Origin: Escherichia phage vB_EcoM_R5505
Strand: one strand, 5' to 3'
DNA: 64,000 nt
Sequence record: MK373786.1
The notes below the pieces were generated by a model that was not told where the DNA came from, did not search any database, and saw only the letters and a program-made list of their open reading frames with translations. Below are positions 16,035 to 23,228 of this stretch, piece after piece (within the stretch, counting starts at the first letter, position 1; the number at the start of each line of letters is the position of its first letter). The position numbers and the translations under genes were made by a program.

Positions 16035-16999
16035 TGTATTCTTTAGAGGAATTTAATAATCAAGCAATAAACGCAGATTTCCAACGTAATAATATGTTTA
16101 GCTGCGTTTTTGCGACAACTCCATCAACTAAAAGCTCTTCGTTGATAAGTTCAATTAGCAACTTTTCTTATAATAACTTGGGCCTAAATTCAGATTGGTT
16201 AGGATTGACTCAAGGTGATATTAATCAGGGAATTACCACGCTAATTACTGCTGGCACACAAAAACTGATAAGAAAATCAGGGGTTAGTAAATATCTTATT
16301 GGTGCCATGAGTCAACGTACAGTTCAAAGTTTATTAGGCTCATTTACAGTTGGTACATATTTAATTGACTTCTTTAATATGGCATATAACTCATCTGGAT
16401 TGATGATATATTCAGTAAAAATGCCAGAGAATAGATTATCCTATGAAACTGACTGGAACTATAATTCTCCTAATATTCGTATAACTGGGAGAGAATTAGA
16501 CCCTTTGGTTATTTCATTTAGAATGGATTCAGAAGCATGTAACTATCGTGCAATGCAAGACTGGGTTAACGCTGTTCAAGACCCAGTAACTGGATTACGC
16601 GCTTTGCCACAAGATGTCGAGGCAGATATTCAGGTTAATCTTCATTCTCGCAATGGATTACCTCATACTGCGGTGATGTTCACAGGATGCATTCCAATAT
16701 CAGTGAGCGCTCCCGAGTTATCATATGATGGAGATAACCAAATAACTACATTTGATGTTACTTTTGCGTACAGAGTGATGCAGGCTGGAGCAGTTGATAG
16801 GCAAGCTGCGCTTGAATGGCTTGAATCTGCTGCTATAAATGGTATTCAAAGCGTTCTCGGAAATAGTGGAGGTGTTACTGGACTATCTAATTCGCTTTCA
16901 CGACTTAGTAGATTAGGAGGGACTGCTGGAAGCATTTCAAACATTAATACTATGACAGGAATTGTTAATTCGCAGAGTAAAATATTAGGAGCAATATAA
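16034..16999 (+). CDS. 54: Baseplate tail-tube initiator gp54
   Basis: 321-aa ORF, start overlaps gp48 stop. Confidence 0.93.
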   Translation: MYSLEEFNNQAINADFQRNNMFSCVFATTPSTKSSSLISSISNFSYNNLGLNSDWLGLTQGDINQGITTLITAGTQKLIRKSGVSKYLIGAMSQRTVQSLLGSFTVGTYLIDFFNMAYNSSGLMIYSVKMPENRLSYETDWNYNSPNIRITGRELDPLVISFRMDSEACNYRAMQDWVNAVQDPVTGLRALPQDVEADIQVNLHSRNGLPHTAVMFTGCIPISVSAPELSYDGDNQITTFDVTFAYRVMQAGAVDRQAALEWLESAAINGIQSVLGNSGGVTGLSNSLSRLSRLGGTAGSISNINTMTGIVNSQSKILGAI

Positions 17000-17001
17000 C
17001 A

Positions 17002-17023
17002 ATGGGGACCTTTCGGTCCCCAT
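17002..17023. terminator. Bidirectional terminator between gene 54 and the alt-region genes
   Basis: ggggacc-tttc-ggtcccc stem-loop. Confidence 0.8.
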
Positions 17024-17027
17024 ATTT

Positions 17028-17318
17028 TTATTTACGGAATGAAATGAAAGCAGAAACTGAAGCAACTAAACTGTCTTCAATATAAACTTCAATTTTTACC
17101 GGAGCTTCTGACTCGAATTTACCTGTTACTACACCTTGGAAAATACTTTCAGTTTGTTCTGGCTTTGAAAAATTTTCAGAAGGAAAAATTCCGAACTTTT
17201 TATCTGTTCCAAAAATTTTGATAAATTCATCATAAACTGCTTCATTAAAAGCATTATCAGCAGGAATAACGCCTTCAACTACAAGTTCTTGACCTAAAAA
17301 GCGCAAAGAAGATTTCAT
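17028..17318 (-). CDS. Hypothetical protein (T4 alt.-3 position)
   Basis: 96-aa ORF preceded by an early promoter repeat. Confidence 0.7.
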   Translation of the reverse strand: MKSSLRFLGQELVVEGVIPADNAFNEAVYDEFIKIFGTDKKFGIFPSENFSKPEQTESIFQGVVTGKFESEAPVKIEVYIEDSLVASVSAFISFRK

Positions 17319-17326
17319 TTTGTGTT

Positions 17327-17379
17327 CCTCATGTTATGTCAGTAAGACTACTATAACACAACACGAGGGACTTGTAAAC
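17327..17379 (-). promoter_or_regulatory. Early promoter, copy 1 of a 53-nt repeat (GTTTAC-N18-TATAGT)
   Basis: Near-identical to 32653-32706 (2 mismatches in 53 nt); -35 GTTTAC (plus-strand gtaaac at 17374-17379). Confidence 0.65.
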
Positions 17380-19436
17380 TACATCTTGAACTTTTTAGAC
17401 ATTCCGTTGATGTTAACCAAAGAAGCCAAGATTTGAGAAACTTCGTTTTCCTCTTCTTTTGATTCTTCTACAAGGAATTGATTAAATCCAGCCATTGGAC
17501 GAACTTCACCAGTTTCCATTAAATGGTCGCCATCATATACTGATTCTTCTAATTGTTCAGAAGGAGGAACGATTGTACCTTCGATTAGATACTTGTTATA
17601 AGCAGTTTCTTTCATAAAGTACGTACTTACTTTATTAATCTTCAGTAAAATTCCACGCGGTAGAATAACTTCAGCTTCTGATGGAAATCCTGATAAATGA
17701 CCTGGAACGATAACTTTGATTCGCTCAGCTCCTTTAATTACCATACCCACGCTAGTTTCAGCATCTTCAATGGCATATGTAGAATGACTACCCATATGCA
17801 TTAAATCTTCTGCATCAACGGAACCTTCTCCTTCGCCAGAAAATACTGCGCCGGAATCATCTAGAGCCATATAGTTTTTACCATGCTCACCGAAGATATT
17901 TGGTTTAAGTGATGTCGATACGAAGTTCTTGAAATAGAACATTTTGTTTTCAATGTTATGACGCAAAGTTTTAAAGGTAACTTCTTGTCCACGGTAAAGT
18001 GTAGTTCCTGGAGGAAGAACTGATCCTTTGGCAAAGGCAGAATCCAACGTCTCGATGTGCTTAATAGCTCGTTCCATATATTCTTCACGGGTAGAATCTG
18101 GTTTACCCAAAAGGAACGAGTTCATTTCAACATATGAATCTGCACAATAATCTTCAATTACATCAGATTCAGCTTGGGTTAATCCTTTTGGAGTTACTTC
18201 GGTGCTTGCGTATTCATATGCCTGGGCAGCAGATTCATTAATCAATTTATAAATGCCATTCATGACAAATTGAATAATAGCTGTCTTTTCATCTGGCGTA
18301 GCTTTAGAACCTTTAACTAAATCATTAATAATTTTCTTAATAACATCAAAGCTATTAGAAATATTAATGTCAGCAAGATCGCTTAAAATTTTATCAGTTT
18401 TATAATCAAAGAATTCTTTATTCTTTAAATATTCTTGAGAACCTTGATATGTTATATCGCTCTGCAACTTGATAGATGGATCACGTAAACGTGCATGGGC
18501 TAATGCAATATGATTTCGGAAGTTTTCTAGTTCATAATCGTTAGATTTAAAACGAGAAGCACTTCTCATACCACCGATAGCTCCTTTGCTAAAGTTTGAA
18601 CCAATCTGGATAACCCCGGAGTTCATCGGACCTTCTGCTTTATATACCGGAACTTTAGATTCAAACTCTTGATATTTCTTGGCAGCGAAGCTATCACCCT
18701 GAAGTGAAGCATCAACAGTAGAATATTGAGCTTGTGCTGCTAATCGACGACTAATTTTAGTTTTCTGAATAACAGCTTGATCAGTGCGCTTATCATTTTC
18801 TAAAGCAATAGAAGCAGCAACAGCGACAGCTTTAGGAACAGCATTACCTGTTTTAACGTCTACATAAACATCACCAACCTTTGATTCAACTTTTGTGAAT
18901 AACTCAGTTGAAATAGGAGGTACACCTGGAATGTCTTCTAAATTGGCATTTTTACGGTAAACCATAATATATGCATACTTTTTATCATAGTCCCAGATTT
19001 CCTTTAAAAGAACATATCGACCTGCTCCTTTAGTACGTACTAAACGGTCAGCAATAACTTGCATTTGACGAGCTGCGCCATTTGTTTTACTCTTTAGTAC
19101 ACGGAATAAGCACGCGTCAATTTTGTACTGCTTCATTGTTTGAAGAGCAGTATCAAAAACAGCATTAATGACGCCAATTGGATTTCCACCCAAGTTTCTA
19201 AGCTTAACCAGCGATAATTTCTCGTTGACACCTATCATTACGATATGCATCATTTTATCGCCTGGTTTAACGTTTTTATTTGTATCACCACCAGAGGTGT
19301 ATGTACAAAATCTAAATCCAGGAAGAACGCTTTCTTCACCGGCTTGAATAGCAAAAATTTGAGGTATTTTATGCTTAGGATTTAAGTTAACAACCGGCGC
19401 CGAAGCGCCGTCAAATAATTCTGTAATAAGTTCCAT
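17379..19436 (-). CDS. Alt-like mono-ADP-ribosyltransferase, second paralog
   Basis: 685-aa ORF; N-terminus MELITELFD shared with the neighbouring Alt ORF; R-S-ExE signature (LYRGQ, FVSTSL, SEAEVILPRG). Confidence 0.88.
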   Translation of the reverse strand: MELITELFDGASAPVVNLNPKHKIPQIFAIQAGEESVLPGFRFCTYTSGGDTNKNVKPGDKMMHIVMIGVNEKLSLVKLRNLGGNPIGVINAVFDTALQTMKQYKIDACLFRVLKSKTNGAARQMQVIADRLVRTKGAGRYVLLKEIWDYDKKYAYIMVYRKNANLEDIPGVPPISTELFTKVESKVGDVYVDVKTGNAVPKAVAVAASIALENDKRTDQAVIQKTKISRRLAAQAQYSTVDASLQGDSFAAKKYQEFESKVPVYKAEGPMNSGVIQIGSNFSKGAIGGMRSASRFKSNDYELENFRNHIALAHARLRDPSIKLQSDITYQGSQEYLKNKEFFDYKTDKILSDLADINISNSFDVIKKIINDLVKGSKATPDEKTAIIQFVMNGIYKLINESAAQAYEYASTEVTPKGLTQAESDVIEDYCADSYVEMNSFLLGKPDSTREEYMERAIKHIETLDSAFAKGSVLPPGTTLYRGQEVTFKTLRHNIENKMFYFKNFVSTSLKPNIFGEHGKNYMALDDSGAVFSGEGEGSVDAEDLMHMGSHSTYAIEDAETSVGMVIKGAERIKVIVPGHLSGFPSEAEVILPRGILLKINKVSTYFMKETAYNKYLIEGTIVPPSEQLEESVYDGDHLMETGEVRPMAGFNQFLVEESKEEENEVSQILASLVNINGMSKKFKM

Positions 19437-19439
19437 GAT

Positions 19440-21530
19440 TTATCCTTGAACGAACTTGTAAGGCATGTTTGTAATATCTATGCAAGACGCAATAATTCCA
19501 AGAGATGATTCTACTTTCTGTTTAACATTTGATGAAACAAATGATGCAAAGTCAACTCTATCTTCTATATCACCTGTCATTGCAACTACTTCGCCGGTTT
19601 CCATTAAACGGTCACCGTCATAAATTACCGATTCGGTGAGTTCTTCTGTGGTCATAACTTCAGCTTGAATGAGTTTTGTATTATTAGACGTGGTTCCGTC
19701 ATTATTAGAAGCATCAGTTATTTTATTAACTTTAACCATCAATCCGCGCGGTAGAATAACTTCAGCTTCTGTTGCTATTCCTAGACTTCCTGGATATACA
19801 ACATTAACTTTATGTGCGCCGTCAATTGCCCATCCTATTTGAACTTTAACGTATTCAGGATTTTCTTTATACGCTCTTATTTCGTTTGGATTAATAGTTA
19901 TTCCTTCTTCATTTTTATCAACTGTCAATTCATTACGAGCTTCTGGTTCTAAAAGACCAATACCAGCATGTGTAATTCCAAAACGCCCAAAAATGATAGG
20001 AGTTAAAGAAGTAGATACAAAATTTCTGAAATAGAACACTTTATTTTTAACTAGCGCTTCGTATATAGGAGCAGTCATACTTTGAGCACGATAAACTGTA
20101 ATGCCTTCCGGTATGCGGTCACCATTTTCAAAAGCTGAATCTAAATTATTTATAGCAGATTCAATTTCTTTTTCACTCATTACATCATATCGTTCTGGAT
20201 TGTAACGACCTAAAAGAAGATTATTGATGTCAGTATATCCTGAACCACAATACTCTCTAATGCCGCGCTTTTGTGATGGAGTATATTTAGAACCATCACG
20301 AGCAATAGTAATATCAATCATTGGACCTGCACCAATTCCGGAAAAGCTATAAATCATTCGTTTGAGGAATTTAGTTTTTGCTGCGTTCCAGGAATTTTTA
20401 GTTATTTCTTCCCAGACTTCATCTGGTTGCCCTTTACGAGTTTTATTATGTTTATCAAGCCAATTATCTTTATATTCTTCAAAGAATTTATTAATAGCTG
20501 CTGCGTATTTCTCTAAACATTTTATTGAAGTAGTTGGTTCATTTTTTATCGCGTTAAAAATTACATCTTTAATTTTTTCGGAAACTTCATCAACCTCACT
20601 TTTTGAAAAGAATTTATAGTCATAGTGAAGTTCATTCGCAGTTCCTTCGGCAATAATTTTTGCTGCCTTAGTTTTAGAAGCTAATGAATTAATTCCAAGC
20701 TTCATTTCTTCTGCTTCGGGAATTAAAGGAGCGGTAGCGGGTTTATTGAAATTAGCTGCGGTAGATTCATACTTCTGAAATAATTCACTTTCAAATCTAG
20801 AAGATTCCAATGACTGACTTTGTGCAATTGCTCTACGGGAAATTTTAACTTTAACGATTACAGCTTGATCAGAACGTTTATCATTTTCTTGCGCAATAGA
20901 TGCTGCAATTGCCTCATTTTTAGTTACTTGAGCTCCAGTATCTTTATTGATATAAACATCACCGACCTTCGATTCAACTTTAGTAAAGAGCTCGGTACTA
21001 ATTTCCGGAACCCCTGGAATGTCTTCTAGTGATACATTTTTGCGATGTATAAGAATATATGCATACTTTTTATCGTAATCCCAGAGTTCCTTAAGAAGGA
21101 CGTATCTGCCACCTGAACGACTACGGATAAGTCTATCAGCAATAACCTGAATTTGTCGAGCTTGACCAGCGGTTTTAGACTTAAGAATACGAAGCATACA
21201 GGCATCAATTTTATACTGACGCATTGTTTGCATTGCAACAGTAAAAACTGAATTGATATAATTAATTGGGCTTGAACCAAGACCTTTCAATTTAGCAATT
21301 GAACCTTTAGCAGTTAATGTAAAAGGAACAATATGCATCATTTTATCGCCCATCTTTAAATCGCGATTAGTATCACCTCCAGATGTATAGGTACATAAAC
21401 GAAAGCCTGGTTGTTCAATTGCATCATCAACATGAACTGAAAAAATTTGTGGTATTTTCTTCTTTGGGTTTAAGTTTGTAATCGGAAGAGTAGTATCTTC
21501 GTCAAATAATTCTGTAATGAGTTCCATCAT
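19440..21530 (-). CDS. alt: Alt, packaged NAD-protein ADP-ribosyltransferase
   Basis: 696-aa ORF; R-S-ExE signature (VYRAQ, FVSTSL, TEAEVILPRG); late promoter immediately upstream. Confidence 0.88.
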   Translation of the reverse strand: MMELITELFDEDTTLPITNLNPKKKIPQIFSVHVDDAIEQPGFRLCTYTSGGDTNRDLKMGDKMMHIVPFTLTAKGSIAKLKGLGSSPINYINSVFTVAMQTMRQYKIDACMLRILKSKTAGQARQIQVIADRLIRSRSGGRYVLLKELWDYDKKYAYILIHRKNVSLEDIPGVPEISTELFTKVESKVGDVYINKDTGAQVTKNEAIAASIAQENDKRSDQAVIVKVKISRRAIAQSQSLESSRFESELFQKYESTAANFNKPATAPLIPEAEEMKLGINSLASKTKAAKIIAEGTANELHYDYKFFSKSEVDEVSEKIKDVIFNAIKNEPTTSIKCLEKYAAAINKFFEEYKDNWLDKHNKTRKGQPDEVWEEITKNSWNAAKTKFLKRMIYSFSGIGAGPMIDITIARDGSKYTPSQKRGIREYCGSGYTDINNLLLGRYNPERYDVMSEKEIESAINNLDSAFENGDRIPEGITVYRAQSMTAPIYEALVKNKVFYFRNFVSTSLTPIIFGRFGITHAGIGLLEPEARNELTVDKNEEGITINPNEIRAYKENPEYVKVQIGWAIDGAHKVNVVYPGSLGIATEAEVILPRGLMVKVNKITDASNNDGTTSNNTKLIQAEVMTTEELTESVIYDGDRLMETGEVVAMTGDIEDRVDFASFVSSNVKQKVESSLGIIASCIDITNMPYKFVQG

Positions 21531-21550
21531 ATCCTCTCTAGTGTTTATTC

Positions 21551-21558
21551 TATTTATA
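21551..21558 (-). promoter_or_regulatory. Late promoter (TATAAATA on minus strand) for alt
   Basis: Plus-strand tatttata, i.e. TATAAATA on the minus strand, about 25 nt upstream of alt ATG. Confidence 0.7.
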
Positions 21559-21563
21559 AAATT

Positions 21564-21581
21564 AAAGGCCCGAAGGCCTTT
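21564..21581. terminator. Terminator hairpin between the gene 30 operon and alt
   Basis: aaaggcc-cgaa-ggccttt. Confidence 0.75.
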
Positions 21582-21768
21582 AATAATCTATTGGTAAGAG
21601 AGTACGATATATTTCAAACTTTGGACCTTTTTCATAAGCATCAAAAGTTTCTGTGAATTTATTATAAGCATATGCATCTATAAATTCAATCATGATTTGT
21701 GATACAGAAGTAGAAACATCTCCACCTTCTTTTTGAGCCACGACAATTGTTTCTAAGTAAGCTTTCAT
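21580..21768 (-). CDS. Small hypothetical protein translationally coupled to DNA ligase
   Basis: 62-aa ORF; ATGA start/stop overlap with gene 30. Confidence 0.5.
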   Translation of the reverse strand: MKAYLETIVVAQKEGGDVSTSVSQIMIEFIDAYAYNKFTETFDAYEKGPKFEIYRTLLPIDY

Positions 21769-23228
21769 AAACCAGTTACCTCATGAAAATCACCAAATAC
21801 ATCCTCGAATGTATTAGCTTTAGTTTTATCTTCACGCAAACGAATCGCAATTGGAAGAAATAATTTAACGTAATCAGTGCGGCCATCGGATTTTAACCAA
21901 CCGTTGCATTCGCACTCTAGAATTTTTCCAATATAATAATTTTGGTTTTCCATAATGCGAGTACGGTCAAGTTCATGTGATTTTACGCCGGCTTTATCTT
22001 TTAAGCCTGAACCGGCATTTACCTTAATTTTTCCACACTCTGACTCAAGAATAAATCCACCTGCTTTAGTAGGGTCTTTACGGTGAGGATAAATTCCTAC
22101 AATTTTTAAATCAACATCAATTACTTCTTTAAATTTATAGAGATTTTTTGAACGAGCATTTTCCCATAATCCATCGATATTTTTGAGAATAATACCTTCA
22201 AGACCTTGGTCAATATACTTTTTATAAATTACCTTAGCTTCATCTAGGTTATTTACTACTTGGTTTTCAATTAAAATTACTTTATCATATCCTGATGTCA
22301 TTTGTTCTAATTTAGAAAAACGTACATCATATTTTAAACGAAATGCTGGAAGACCGTATATTTCTACCAACGGAACATAATCCCAGACCTGAAACTTCAT
22401 GCATTGAGCTTCTTTTTCTGAAATAGTTCCCTTTAAAGATTTATTAGCGATTCCATTAGAAGTAGTACGTGATTCAGCTACTTCAGCAAACTCTTTAGCT
22501 TTACTAATTTCAGGATAAGCATCAAAAAGAAAATCTAGGCCTTCTGGCTCCTTTTTAACTTGCTCATGGTATACCAATTCGCCATCAATTAACACACCTT
22601 CTGGATGAATCTGGCGGGCTTCAGCGGTCATTTTGATTAACTCTTCCTTAAGAAGATCTAATCCTAGATATTCATTACCAGCTCGTGATAAAAGACGGAC
22701 ATCATCTAATTCATCACCTCTAACTTCAGCAAAACACCGAGCTCCATCTGCTTTTAATTGTGCAAAGGCTGGAAATTTGATATTCTTACTAATGCCTTTT
22801 TCATCATAAGAACTTGCGAGCATTTGAGGTTGTTCAGGAATTAAACCTGGCCAAACTTTGTTTGCAATAGATACTGAAGCACCACATTCAAGGTCTCGCA
22901 TCATCACTCGACGCAAAACTTCAACATCATCTTTTTTACCATCGGTGATATATCCAGATAATTCCTCAATTGCCGCATTTCCGGTCAATTTCCGAGTAGC
23001 TAACGTGAATTCAATGAAGTCAAGCATATCGGTAAGAGTCAACATTCCAAAACTCTGGGTAGCAATACCAGATTTAGGCCATTTCTTGATATAATACTGC
23101 AACCCACGAGAATAAGTCAGACGATATACTCGTTTAAGCAATTCATTATCTTTATTCTTTTCAAGAATTGCTTGCTTCTGCTTAGTTGAACCAATAGATG
23201 CTATTTCGTTCAGAATTTTAAGAATCAT
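21765..23228 (-). CDS. 30: ATP-dependent DNA ligase gp30
   Basis: 487-aa ORF; adenylation lysine motif (QLKADGARCF); N-terminus MILKILNEIASIGSTKQKQAILEKN. Confidence 0.97.
   Translation of the reverse strand: MILKILNEIASIGSTKQKQAILEKNKDNELLKRVYRLTYSRGLQYYIKKWPKSGIATQSFGMLTLTDMLDFIEFTLATRKLTGNAAIEELSGYITDGKKDDVEVLRRVMMRDLECGASVSIANKVWPGLIPEQPQMLASSYDEKGISKNIKFPAFAQLKADGARCFAEVRGDELDDVRLLSRAGNEYLGLDLLKEELIKMTAEARQIHPEGVLIDGELVYHEQVKKEPEGLDFLFDAYPEISKAKEFAEVAESRTTSNGIANKSLKGTISEKEAQCMKFQVWDYVPLVEIYGLPAFRLKYDVRFSKLEQMTSGYDKVILIENQVVNNLDEAKVIYKKYIDQGLEGIILKNIDGLWENARSKNLYKFKEVIDVDLKIVGIYPHRKDPTKAGGFILESECGKIKVNAGSGLKDKAGVKSHELDRTRIMENQNYYIGKILECECNGWLKSDGRTDYVKLFLPIAIRLREDKTKANTFEDVFGDFHEVTGL

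What the first reader, a model, noticed from the sequence alone, without database searches (positions are those of the whole stretch)
17379..21530. Two full-length Alt-type ADP-ribosyltransferases in tandem
Two adjacent minus-strand ORFs (685 and 696 aa) share a near-identical N-terminus (MELITELFD...NLNPK.KIPQIF...GFR.CTYTSGGDTN, consistent with a shared capsid-targeting/processing region) and both keep the R-S-ExE catalytic signature (YRGQ/YRAQ, FVSTSL, EAEVILPRG). Their central regions are divergent, which suggests they ADP-ribosylate different host targets upon injection. Only the upstream copy has its own late promoter; the second starts 3 nt after the first ends, so they are co-transcribed. 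Whether T4 itself has a second intact copy here I cannot say from memory.
Basis: partly seen in the sequence, partly recalled or inferred. Interest (0 to 1): 0.6.

Follow-up and report, generated by a model that had tools for sequence, protein, structure and literature searches.

The report
Two tandem Alt ADP-ribosyltransferase genes
This T4-like phage carries two intact, adjacent copies of the injected host-modifying enzyme Alt, where phage T4 keeps only a broken stump of the second copy; the arrangement is real but already annotated in hundreds of related phage genomes, and only the second enzyme's function remains unknown.

Summary
Two minus-strand ORFs (19440-21530 and 17379-19436) encode 695/696-aa and 685-aa Alt-family proteins, 41% identical overall. 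Both have an intact ART domain, the R / S-T-S / E-x-E residues, a C3/VIP2/Vis-like predicted fold, and both gp21 protease-site motifs known from T4 Alt. They share one conserved hairpin plus TATAAATA late promoter, a 3-nt spacer and one downstream terminator.

The window is an RB32/T2-like Tequatrovirus. The upstream gene is alt, in a non-T4 allele. The downstream gene is the one RB32 calls alt.-2. T4's alt.-1/alt.-2 ORFs are its remnant, with a frameshift and a 1,690-bp deletion.

The second copy is under strong purifying selection (48 synonymous vs 4 non-synonymous changes against RB32). It is intact in about 400 phage records, against 91 with the T4-type deletion. It is an ancient paralogue: the ART domains split into two well-supported clades that span genera, with different substrate-recognition (ARTT) loops.

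Different host targets are therefore plausible but untested, as is packaging of copy B. The tandem pair is already annotated (RB32, T2, AR1, RefSeq) and noted in the literature. I rate it as already known and of low-to-moderate interest.

The parts
21564..21581 (-). Hairpin AAAGGCC-TTCG-GGCCTTT overlapping the alt.1 stop codon, just upstream of the late promoter. Terminator-like; it isolates the alt unit from upstream transcription.
   Evidence: Read directly from the sequence. Conserved in T4, RB32, L003 and L004. The simple terminator scan did not list it.
21551..21558 (-). T4-type late promoter motif TATAAATA, 20 nt upstream of the first ATG of the upstream gene.
   Evidence: Position and context conserved in T4, RB32, L003 and L004. 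T4 alt is a late gene (PMC9697503).
19440..21530 (-). Copy A = alt. It is 696 aa from the first ATG, or 695 aa from the probable true start at 21527. It is the positional orthologue of T4 alt but a different allele.
   Evidence: Identity to T4 Alt is 99 / 33 / 60 / 94 % for aa 1-235 / 236-400 / 401-625 / 626-end. It is 99% identical to RB32 alt; its central 391 aa are 98.5% identical to phage T2, where the gene is annotated Alt-like.
20823..21527 (-). Copy A N-terminal domain (aa 1-235; Pfam PF26846 Tevenvirinae_ADPRT), including the gp21 site ITE at 21510-21518.
   Evidence: (PF26846 is precomputed for P0139, 99% identical to copy A). The ITE-6 cleavage is known for T4 Alt (PMC5694885).
19647..20396 (-). 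Copy A ART domain (Pfam ADPrib_exo_Tox envelope). Catalytic R at 20088-20090, STS at 20007-20015, EAE at 19761-19769.
   Evidence: E = 1.9e-37, profile 2-195 of 196. AF2 model plus Foldseek hits to Vis, CDTa, iota and VIP2.
19632..19640 (-). Copy A codons L-T-E, homologous to the T4 Alt C-terminal gp21 cleavage site LTE-619. The downstream 63 aa are the predicted C-terminal propeptide.
   Evidence: (E632 invariant); PMC5694885. AF2 confidence collapses after about residue 628.
19437..19447 (-). Junction between the genes: AAGGA Shine-Dalgarno (19447-19443) inside the last codons of copy A, TAA stop (19442-19440) and a 3-nt spacer ATC (19439-19437) before the copy B ATG.
17379..19436 (-). Copy B (685 aa) = the gene RB32 annotates as alt.-2. 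It is the intact form of the gene whose remnants are T4 alt.-1 and alt.-2.
   Evidence: It is 99% identical to the representative of a cluster with 772 member sequences. Its last 446 aa are at least 95% identical in 401 phage records. dN/dS is 0.02 vs RB32 and 0.13 vs L003.
18732..19436 (-). Copy B N-terminal domain (aa 1-235; PF26846), with the ITE gp21 motif at 19419-19427.
   Evidence: The domain family is small: 69 representatives among 1.84 billion, and 50 of 52 scanned also carry an ART domain.
17577..18191 (-). Copy B ART domain (Pfam envelope). R482 at 17991-17993, S507-T-S509 at 17910-17918, E587-A-E589 at 17670-17678. Its ARTT loop SGFPSEAE carries an aromatic residue that the A/T4 type lacks.
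17544..17552 (-). Copy B codons L-E-E at the position homologous to T4 Alt LTE-619. The downstream 54 aa are the predicted C-terminal propeptide.
   Evidence: (E631 invariant). AF2 low confidence from residue 629.
17399..19088 (-). The 1,690-bp segment of copy B (codons ~117-679) that is missing in phage T4.
   Evidence: blastn of the T4 locus against the window, with the junction at the microhomology CTAAA(A/G)AGT. The T4-type junction is contiguous in 91 of 498 matching phage records.
17028..17318 (-). alt.-3 (96 aa, DUF5498), the last gene of the unit. It is preceded by an early-promoter-like GTTTACA-17-TATAGT at 17378-17350.
17002..17023 (.). Bidirectional hairpin terminator between alt.-3 and the convergent gene 54. 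It is the only terminator-like site on the minus strand downstream of the late promoter.

Best explanation
The locus is the alt region of an RB32/T2-like Tequatrovirus. It holds two ancient paralogues of the Alt ADP-ribosyltransferase in tandem, and both appear functional.

Shown here:
- Both are intact genes under purifying selection.
- Both have the complete Alt architecture: the Tevenvirinae-specific N-terminal domain, a helical linker, a C3/VIP2-type R-S-ExE ART domain and a C-terminal tail.
- Both keep the two L/I-x-E motifs at which the T4 prohead protease gp21 cuts T4 Alt.
- They sit behind one conserved hairpin plus TATAAATA late promoter, with a 3-nt gap, a Shine-Dalgarno for the second gene inside the end of the first, and no terminator until after alt.-3.
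- T4's alt.-1/alt.-2 ORFs are the frameshifted, deleted remnant of the second gene.

Inferred mechanism. Both proteins are made late from one transcript and built into the prohead core through the shared N-terminal domain and propeptides. gp21 trims them to about 70 kDa (A) and 69 kDa (B). They are injected with the DNA and transfer ADP-ribose from NAD+ to arginine residues of host proteins in the first moments of infection.

The ART domains belong to two clades that separated before the Tequatrovirus genus. Their ARTT loops are conserved within each clade but differ between clades. The two enzymes therefore most likely modify different host substrates. Copy A does the RNA-polymerase-alpha / MazF-type job described for T4 Alt; the target of copy B is unknown.
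For: Identity and context:
- 98% nt identity to Ozark, TB37 and RB32.
- Same gene order as T4 and RB32: 30, alt.1, alt, [alt.-2], alt.-3, 54, 48.

Family and fold:
- phrog_802 end to end for both.
- Pfam PF03496 at 1.9e-37 (A) and 6.1e-20 (B).
- PF26846 on the cluster representatives.
- R482, S507, S509, E587 and E589 invariant in 29 diverse family members, and nearly invariant in 52 more distant ones.

Selection and spread:
- Copy B differs from RB32 by 48 synonymous and 4 non-synonymous changes (omega 0.02). Omega is 0.13 against a homologue only 74% identical.
- The B-specific 446 aa are at least 95% identical in 401 records.
- The same tandem occurs in T2, AR1 and the divergent contig L003.

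Processing:
- T4 Alt is cut at ITE-6 and LTE-619 to give 68.2 kDa (PMC5694885). My computed mass for residues 7-619 is 68.2 kDa.
- The homologous E6 and E631/E632 are invariant.
- AF2 confidence drops close to these boundaries (about residues 10-11 and 628-629).

Transcription:
-. T4 alt is expressed late (PMC9697503).

Ancient paralogy and different loops:
- ART-domain NJ bootstrap is 97/100 for the B-type clade and 100/100 for the A/T4-type clade, each containing members from other genera.
- The ARTT loop has a conserved F/Y in the B type only.

T4 remnant:
-; the remnant families phrog_23015 and phrog_15247 match B better than A.
Against: - There is no direct evidence that copy B is expressed, packaged, processed, injected or enzymatically active. 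No paper in the held library reports proteomics or biochemistry for it.
- Target divergence rests only on loop and clade differences.
- T4 and about 90 related records have lost copy B, so it is dispensable under some conditions.
- An exact TATAAATA inside copy A (20154-20147) could in principle give copy B a separate late transcript, although it is not conserved.
- The AF2 alignments were shallow (29 sequences), and I could not inspect the catalytic-site geometry.
Confidence: 0.75

Rival explanations
1. Copy B is a redundant or decaying duplicate with no function of its own, on its way to the state seen in T4.
For: T4 and 91 of 498 related records carry only a deleted, frameshifted remnant. 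A natural phage (L004) has collapsed the pair into one chimeric gene.
Against: - Omega is 0.02 vs RB32 and 0.13 vs a homologue 74% identical.
- All catalytic and processing residues are invariant.
- The B body is intact and at least 95% conserved in 401 records.
- B-type ART domains form their own clade, conserved across genera (97/100 bootstrap).
- In the L004 chimera, the B body is the part that was kept.
Confidence: 0.05
2. Copy B is an active ART, but it is not packaged. It acts inside the producing cell late in infection, as ModA and ModB act after their synthesis, rather than being injected.
For: Nothing here shows packaging. Late expression would also allow intracellular action. T4's other ARTs, ModA and ModB, are deployed after infection begins rather than from the virion (PMC9503650).
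Against: - Copy B keeps the whole Alt-specific N-terminal domain (67% identical to copy A; 92% conserved against L003 with dN/dS 0.035). It also keeps both gp21 cleavage motifs and the conserved C-terminal tail.
- These features are hard to explain if the protein never enters the prohead.
- The N-terminal domain is found almost only in this architecture.
Confidence: 0.12
3. The two proteins act on the same substrates, as a dosage effect or as a heteromeric pair. The central divergence would then reflect drift or structural roles in the head core rather than new targets.
For: The catalytic motifs are identical (EAEVILPRG, FVSTSL). Both are predicted to be arginine-specific. T4 Alt is described as modifying several host proteins, among them RNA polymerase alpha and MazF (PMC9503650, PMC10286901).
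Against: - The ARTT loops and the region before the catalytic Arg are conserved within each paralogue clade and differ between clades.
- The ART domains are only 32% identical.
- The two types have been kept side by side in several genera, which is the pattern expected for sub- or neo-functionalised paralogues.
Confidence: 0.15

Closest known systems
Phage T4 Alt (NP_049811; NAD+--arginine ADP-ribosyltransferase, packaged and injected)
   Same: - Copy A is its positional orthologue, behind the same promoter and hairpin.
- The N-terminal 235 aa are 99% identical and the C-terminal tail 94%.
- The R-S-ExE motifs and both gp21 sites are the same.
- Copy B shares the whole architecture at 41-42% identity.
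   Different: - Copy A is a different allele in the linker (33% identical) and the ART domain (60%).
- Copy B belongs to a separate ART clade with a different ARTT loop.
- No biochemistry exists for either window protein.
RB32 alt.-2 (YP_803136) and the second 'Alt-like RNA polymerase ADP-ribosyltransferase' of T2, AR1, Ozark, slur02 and others
   Same: The same gene as copy B: 685 aa, 99% identical, same position, same 3-nt spacing after alt.
   Different: Nothing substantive. The RB32 depositors read it as an 'apparent insertion in alt.-2; similar to alt', whereas the comparison here shows that T4 is the deleted state.
T4 alt.-1 and alt.-2 hypothetical ORFs
   Same: They align to codons 1-57 and 62-119 of copy B at the same locus. 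The T4 annotation itself calls them an old duplication of the first part of alt.
   Different: In T4 the gene is broken by a frameshift near codon 55 and by an out-of-frame 1,690-bp deletion that removes the linker and the whole ART domain.
T4 ModA/ModB (adjacent paralogous ARTs with different substrates)
   Same: It is a precedent within the same phage group for more than one ART, with differing activities: ModB, but not ModA, is reported to carry out RNAylation (PMC9503650). That modA and modB are adjacent paralogues is from my own knowledge.
   Different: ModA and ModB are small ART proteins deployed after infection begins, not from the virion. They lack the Alt N-terminal domain and gp21 propeptides, and they belong to a different ART family (the Mod family, per PMC9503650).
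C3 exoenzyme / VIP2 / iota-CDTa / Vis family of bacterial R-S-E mono-ARTs
   Different: Only 15-25% identical. These are secreted bacterial toxins that act on eukaryotic targets, with no phage packaging module.

Membership tests
T4 Alt family (phrog_802; Pfam PF26846 + PF03496) | Full-length match to the Alt family profile. | tested here: met
   phrog_802 covers 1-685 of copy B (7.1e-256) and 1-694 of copy A (1.3e-272).
T4 Alt family (phrog_802; Pfam PF26846 + PF03496) | Tevenvirinae-specific N-terminal domain (PF26846). | tested here: met
   PF26846 is precomputed on P0001 (99% identical to copy B) and P0139 (99% identical to copy A), and on the genes called in L003 and L004. The local Pfam copy lacks this model. 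Copy A is 99% identical to T4 Alt over aa 1-235, and copy B 67%.
T4 Alt family (phrog_802; Pfam PF26846 + PF03496) | C-terminal ADPrib_exo_Tox domain above the Pfam gathering score. | tested here: met
   129 bits (A) and 71.8 bits (B) against a cut-off of 23.4, with near-complete profile coverage.
T4 Alt family (phrog_802; Pfam PF26846 + PF03496) | Catalytic R, S-T-S and E-x-E residues. The T4 Alt mutant E577A is inactive (PMC11404850). That residue corresponds to the second Glu if numbering starts at the upstream Met; the correspondence is my inference. | tested here: met
   A (696-aa numbering): R481, STS 506-508, E588-A-E590. B: R482, STS 507-509, E587-A-E589. These positions are invariant in 29 family members.
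T4 Alt family (phrog_802; Pfam PF26846 + PF03496) | gp21 prohead-protease sites at both ends (T4: ITE-6 and LTE-619; PMC5694885). | tested here: met
   The motifs are present at homologous positions: ITE in both, LTE in A and LEE in B. The Glu residues are invariant across the family. Actual cleavage was not tested.
T4 Alt family (phrog_802; Pfam PF26846 + PF03496) | Genomic position between gene 30/alt.1 and alt.-3/gene 54, behind a late promoter. | tested here: met
T4 Alt family (phrog_802; Pfam PF26846 + PF03496) | Presence in the virion (about 40 copies in T4) and injection with the DNA. | not testable with these tools
   This needs virion proteomics. No such data for copy B were found in the held literature.
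T4 Alt family (phrog_802; Pfam PF26846 + PF03496) | NAD-dependent ADP-ribosylation of host proteins (RNA polymerase alpha, MazF and others). | not testable with these tools
   This is a biochemical property. It is known for T4 Alt only (PMC9503650, PMC10286901).
R-S-E clade mono-ADP-ribosyltransferases (C3/VIP2/iota type) | ART fold with an NAD-binding cleft. | tested here: met
R-S-E clade mono-ADP-ribosyltransferases (C3/VIP2/iota type) | E-x-E (arginine-specific) rather than Q-x-E (asparagine-specific) in the ARTT motif. | tested here: met
   Both have E-A-E. Arginine specificity follows from established knowledge of the family and was not measured.

The most novel reading that the evidence does not exclude
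Copy B is a second virion-delivered ART with a host substrate set distinct from that of Alt. One possibility is that it neutralises a toxin-antitoxin or other defence protein that the T4/K-12 model system never exposed. On this reading the model phage T4 is a minority deletion variant that lost an effector kept by about 80% of its genus. More broadly, the alt locus would behave like a polymorphic-effector locus. A lineage-specific delivery module (the N-terminal domain plus the two propeptides) stays fixed. ART modules of ancient, distinct clades are kept, swapped or collapsed by recombination within the shared N-terminal region.
Probability: 0.45. Interest if true: 0.5.

Novelty: already known. 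Interest (0 to 1): 0.25.

Why it matters
Alt is the textbook example of an enzyme that a phage carries in its head and injects to reprogramme the host at time zero. Almost everything known about it comes from T4.

This analysis shows that T4 carries the deleted state of the locus. Most sequenced Tequatroviruses, including classic phage T2, encode a second, strongly conserved Alt paralogue with a different substrate-recognition loop. If that protein is injected and hits different host proteins, the early host-takeover or anti-defence repertoire of T-even phages is larger than the T4 model suggests.

The question can be tested directly by virion proteomics and ADP-ribosyl-proteomics. As a genomic feature it is not new: it has been annotated since the RB32 genome and is labelled in RefSeq.

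Tried and rejected
- Pseudogene or decay hypothesis for copy B. Rejected by dN/dS and by conservation.
- The internal TATAAATA (20154-20147) as a dedicated late promoter for copy B. It is not conserved in T4 or L003, it arises from the codons S-A-I-N-N, and the motif is barely enriched in the window. Probably chance.
- Recent gene conversion as the cause of the similar N-termini. Rejected for the window, because dS between A and B over aa 1-235 is saturated at about 1.5. The lineage-wise clustering of N-domains (100/100 bootstrap) must reflect older homogenisation or co-evolution with the head core.
- The N-terminal domain as a general delivery cassette for other effector types. Not supported: 50 of 52 diverse proteins that carry it also carry an ART domain.
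- A solved structure of any Alt relative by sequence. None at E <= 0.01.
- NCBIfam. No model matches.
- Rfam scan of 16500-22000. Nothing.
- Literature on function or packaging of the second copy. Nothing found. The T4 genome review (PMC150520) is not held.

Full report
**1. What is in the sequence**

The ORF list gives two adjacent minus-strand ORFs: 19440-21530 (696 aa) and 17379-19436 (685 aa). They are flanked by:
- gene 30 DNA ligase (21765-23228) and a 62-aa alt.1 homologue (21580-21768) upstream;
- a 96-aa DUF5498 protein (alt.-3, 17028-17318) downstream;
- convergent genes 54 and 48 on the plus strand.

BLASTP between the two ORFs gives 41% identity and E = 6e-163. At the DNA level, direct repeats spaced 2,088-2,097 nt apart mark the tandem duplication.

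The first gene's TAA (19442-19440) is followed by ATC and then the second gene's ATG, with AAGGA 7 nt upstream. TATAAATA lies at 21558-21551, directly after an AAAGGCC-TTCG-GGCCTTT hairpin. The only terminator-like hairpin on the minus strand further down is the bidirectional one at 17002-17023, after alt.-3.

- The shared N-terminal 235 aa are 67% identical, not near-identical.
- The likely start of the upstream gene is the second ATG (21527), as in T4, RB32 and the divergent locus L003.
- A second TATAAATA sits inside the upstream gene (20154-20147). It is not conserved, and the motif is only weakly enriched in the window, so it is probably chance.

**2. What the window is, and what T4 has**

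The 4.8-kb region is 97-98% identical to RB32-like Tequatroviruses (TB37, Ozark, RB32, RB33, Sf22 and others). [quoted passage not shown] Phage T2 has the same 697 + 685-aa pair. AR1 combines a T4-type alt allele with an intact second copy.

In T4 the locus reads alt.1, alt, alt.-1, alt.-2, alt.-3. The T4 annotation already calls alt.-1/alt.-2 an old duplication of the start of alt. The alignment shows that alt.-1 and alt.-2 correspond to codons 1-57 and 62-119 of the window's downstream gene, not of alt. PHROG families for those remnants also match copy B better than copy A.

Comparison of the T4 locus with the window shows two lesions in T4:
- T4 lacks window 17399-19088 (1,690 bp, codons ~117-679). 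The ends are joined out of frame at a CTAAA(A/G)AGT microhomology.
- T4 has a frameshift near codon 55.

So T4 has no second intact copy; it has the wreck of this one. The T4-type junction is contiguous in 91 of 498 matching phage records. The copy-B-specific 446 aa are at least 95% identical in 401 records. The intact pair is therefore the common state, and T4 is the minority.

**3. Are both genes functional Alt-type ARTs?**

Family and motifs:
- Both match phrog_802 end to end.
- Both match Pfam ADPrib_exo_Tox far above threshold (A 1.9e-37, B 6.1e-20).
- Cluster representatives 99% identical to each carry the Tevenvirinae_ADPRT N-terminal domain PF26846.
- In a 29-sequence alignment spanning several genera, the catalytic Arg, S-T-S and both Glu of E-x-E are invariant. 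They remain nearly invariant among 52 more distant representatives.
- The T4 Alt mutant E577A is catalytically dead (PMC11404850). By my count that is the second Glu of this motif if numbering starts at the upstream Met.

Structure:
- AlphaFold models have mean pLDDT 78 for both, with the ART domains mostly above 80.
- Foldseek hits Vis, C3, CDTa, iota-Ia, VIP2 and Certhrax with probability 1.0.
- No Alt relative has a solved structure detectable by sequence.

Selection (Nei-Gojobori counts):

| Comparison | Result |
|---|---|
| Copy B vs RB32 | 48 synonymous, 4 non-synonymous; omega 0.02 |
| Copy B vs L003 homologue (74% identical) | omega 0.13 |
| Copy A vs RB32 | omega 0.03 |

Copy B is not a decaying duplicate.

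**4. Packaging and processing signals**

T4 Alt is a prohead-core protein, present at about 40 copies and injected with the DNA (PMC9026906, PMC9503650). Mass spectrometry showed that gp21 cuts it at ITE-6 and LTE-619 to give 68.2 kDa (PMC5694885). My calculation for residues 7-619 gives 68.2 kDa.

Both window proteins begin MELITE. At the homologous C-terminal site they carry LTE (A) or LEE (B), followed by S-V-(I)-Y-D-G-D. The two Glu residues are invariant across the family. AlphaFold confidence collapses close to these boundaries, at about residues 10-11 and from about 628-629. Predicted mature sizes are 70.2 kDa (A) and 69.2 kDa (B).

This supports, but does not prove, that copy B is packaged and processed like Alt.

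**5. Expression**

The hairpin plus TATAAATA upstream of alt is conserved in T4, RB32, the divergent L003 and the single-gene locus L004. T4 alt is a late gene at both transcript and protein level (PMC9697503). With a 3-nt spacer, an embedded Shine-Dalgarno and no intervening terminator, co-transcription of A and B, and probably alt.-3, is the simplest reading. It remains an inference.

**6. Evolution, and what it says about function**

Copy A is a mosaic relative to T4 Alt. Identity is 99 / 33 / 60 / 94 % for aa 1-235 / 236-400 / 401-625 / tail. Several central-region alleles circulate within the genus.

Neighbour-joining trees with 100 bootstraps are sharply discordant between domains:
- The ART domains fall into a B-type clade (97/100) and an A/T4-type clade (100/100). 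Each contains proteins from other genera, and two metagenomic contigs each appear, by matching contig length, to carry two different Alt paralogues.
- The N-terminal domains instead group all Tequatrovirus-like A and B copies together (100/100).

Synonymous divergence between A and B in the N-terminal region is saturated (dS about 1.5), so this is not recent gene conversion. It points to older homogenisation, or to co-evolution of the delivery module with the lineage's head core.

Within the ART domain, the ARTT loop and the segment before the catalytic Arg are conserved within each clade but differ between clades. B-type proteins carry a conserved F/Y four to five residues before E-x-E; A-type proteins do not. 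In C3/iota-type ARTs this loop contributes to substrate choice; that is established knowledge of the family, not tested here. The pattern therefore favours different host substrates for the two enzymes.

One metagenomic phage (L004) has collapsed the pair into a single chimeric gene. It has an A-type N-terminus to about residue 192 and a B-type body, with the crossover in the shared FTKVESKVGDVY block. This shows that the shared N-terminal region acts as a recombination substrate.

The N-terminal domain is rare (69 representatives at 50% identity among 1.84 billion proteins) and almost always accompanies an ART domain (50 of 52). It is therefore not a general cassette for other effectors.

**7. 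Comparison with what is known, and verdict**

The tandem pair is annotated in RB32, T2, AR1 and many RefSeq records. The T4 annotation describes the remnant. Nolan et al. 2006 list paralogous alt duplications in T4-like phages, including a full-length one in 44RR (PMC1524935).

I found no publication on the expression, packaging, activity or targets of the second copy. As a genomic feature the finding is therefore already known.

The residual interest is functional. A strongly conserved, probably injected second ART is missing from the model phage, and its targets are unknown. I rate interest at 0.25.

Noticed in passing
L004 4001-6055 (Logan SRR24155011 contig); corresponds to window 17379-21527: A related phage has a single alt gene that is a chimera. 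Residues 1 to about 192 are A-type and the rest is B-type, with the crossover in the shared FTKVESKVGDVY block. Recombination between the paralogues' N-terminal regions deleted the body of copy A.
   Followed up: partly
window 19440-21527 vs T4 alt (L001 7455-9503): alt itself is mosaic within the genus. It is 99% identical to T4 Alt in aa 1-235 and 94% in the tail, but only 33% in the linker and 60% in the ART domain. At least three central-region alleles circulate: the RB32/T2 type, the Bp7 type (about 81%) and the T4/AR1 type (about 49%).
   Followed up: partly
window 17028-17318 (alt.-3) and 17350-17378: alt.-3 (DUF5498) is the T4 gene in which C-terminal extension mutations let T4 escape the CmdTAC defence system (PMC11618068). 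In the window it is preceded by an early-promoter-like GTTTACA-17 nt-TATAGT with TG, so it may be transcribed both early and as the tail of the late alt unit.
   Followed up: no
window 20147-20154 (minus strand): An exact late-promoter motif TATAAATA lies inside copy A, 711 nt upstream of the copy B start. It is present in RB32 but absent from T4 alt and the L003 homologue, and it is encoded by codons S-A-I-N-N. Probably fortuitous.
   Followed up: yes
window 21527-21532: Tandem ATGATG at the start of alt. ORF finders take the first ATG (MMELITE, 696 aa). T4 and RB32 annotation and the L003 sequence support the second. This one-residue offset probably explains why the literature calls the catalytic Glu of T4 Alt E577, while it is E576 when counted from MELITE (PMC11404850).
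   Followed up: partly
window 21580-21768 (alt.1): The 62-aa ORF between the ligase gene and alt matches Pfam PF24647 'Phage blade protein' (7.5e-29) and phrog_1976 (unknown function). Its stop codon overlaps the first bases of the hairpin stem that precedes the alt late promoter.
   Followed up: no
Alignment A2 (alt family); window 18732-19436 and 20823-21527: The phylogenetic signal is discordant between domains. N-terminal domains cluster by phage lineage (100/100), while ART domains cluster by paralogue type across genera (97-100/100). dS between the two N-domains in the window is saturated, so any homogenisation is old.
   Followed up: partly
Phage records OR584013.1 and PV654520.1 (hits H38, H88): Two records labelled as Pseudomonas phages (PsgM02F, vB_PSGBLB0006) carry Tequatrovirus alt-locus sequences: OR584013 matches copy B at 98.7% amino-acid identity, PV654520 matches copy A's centre at only 48.6% (T4-type allele). 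Either the host range is unusual or the records are mislabelled or contaminated.
   Followed up: no
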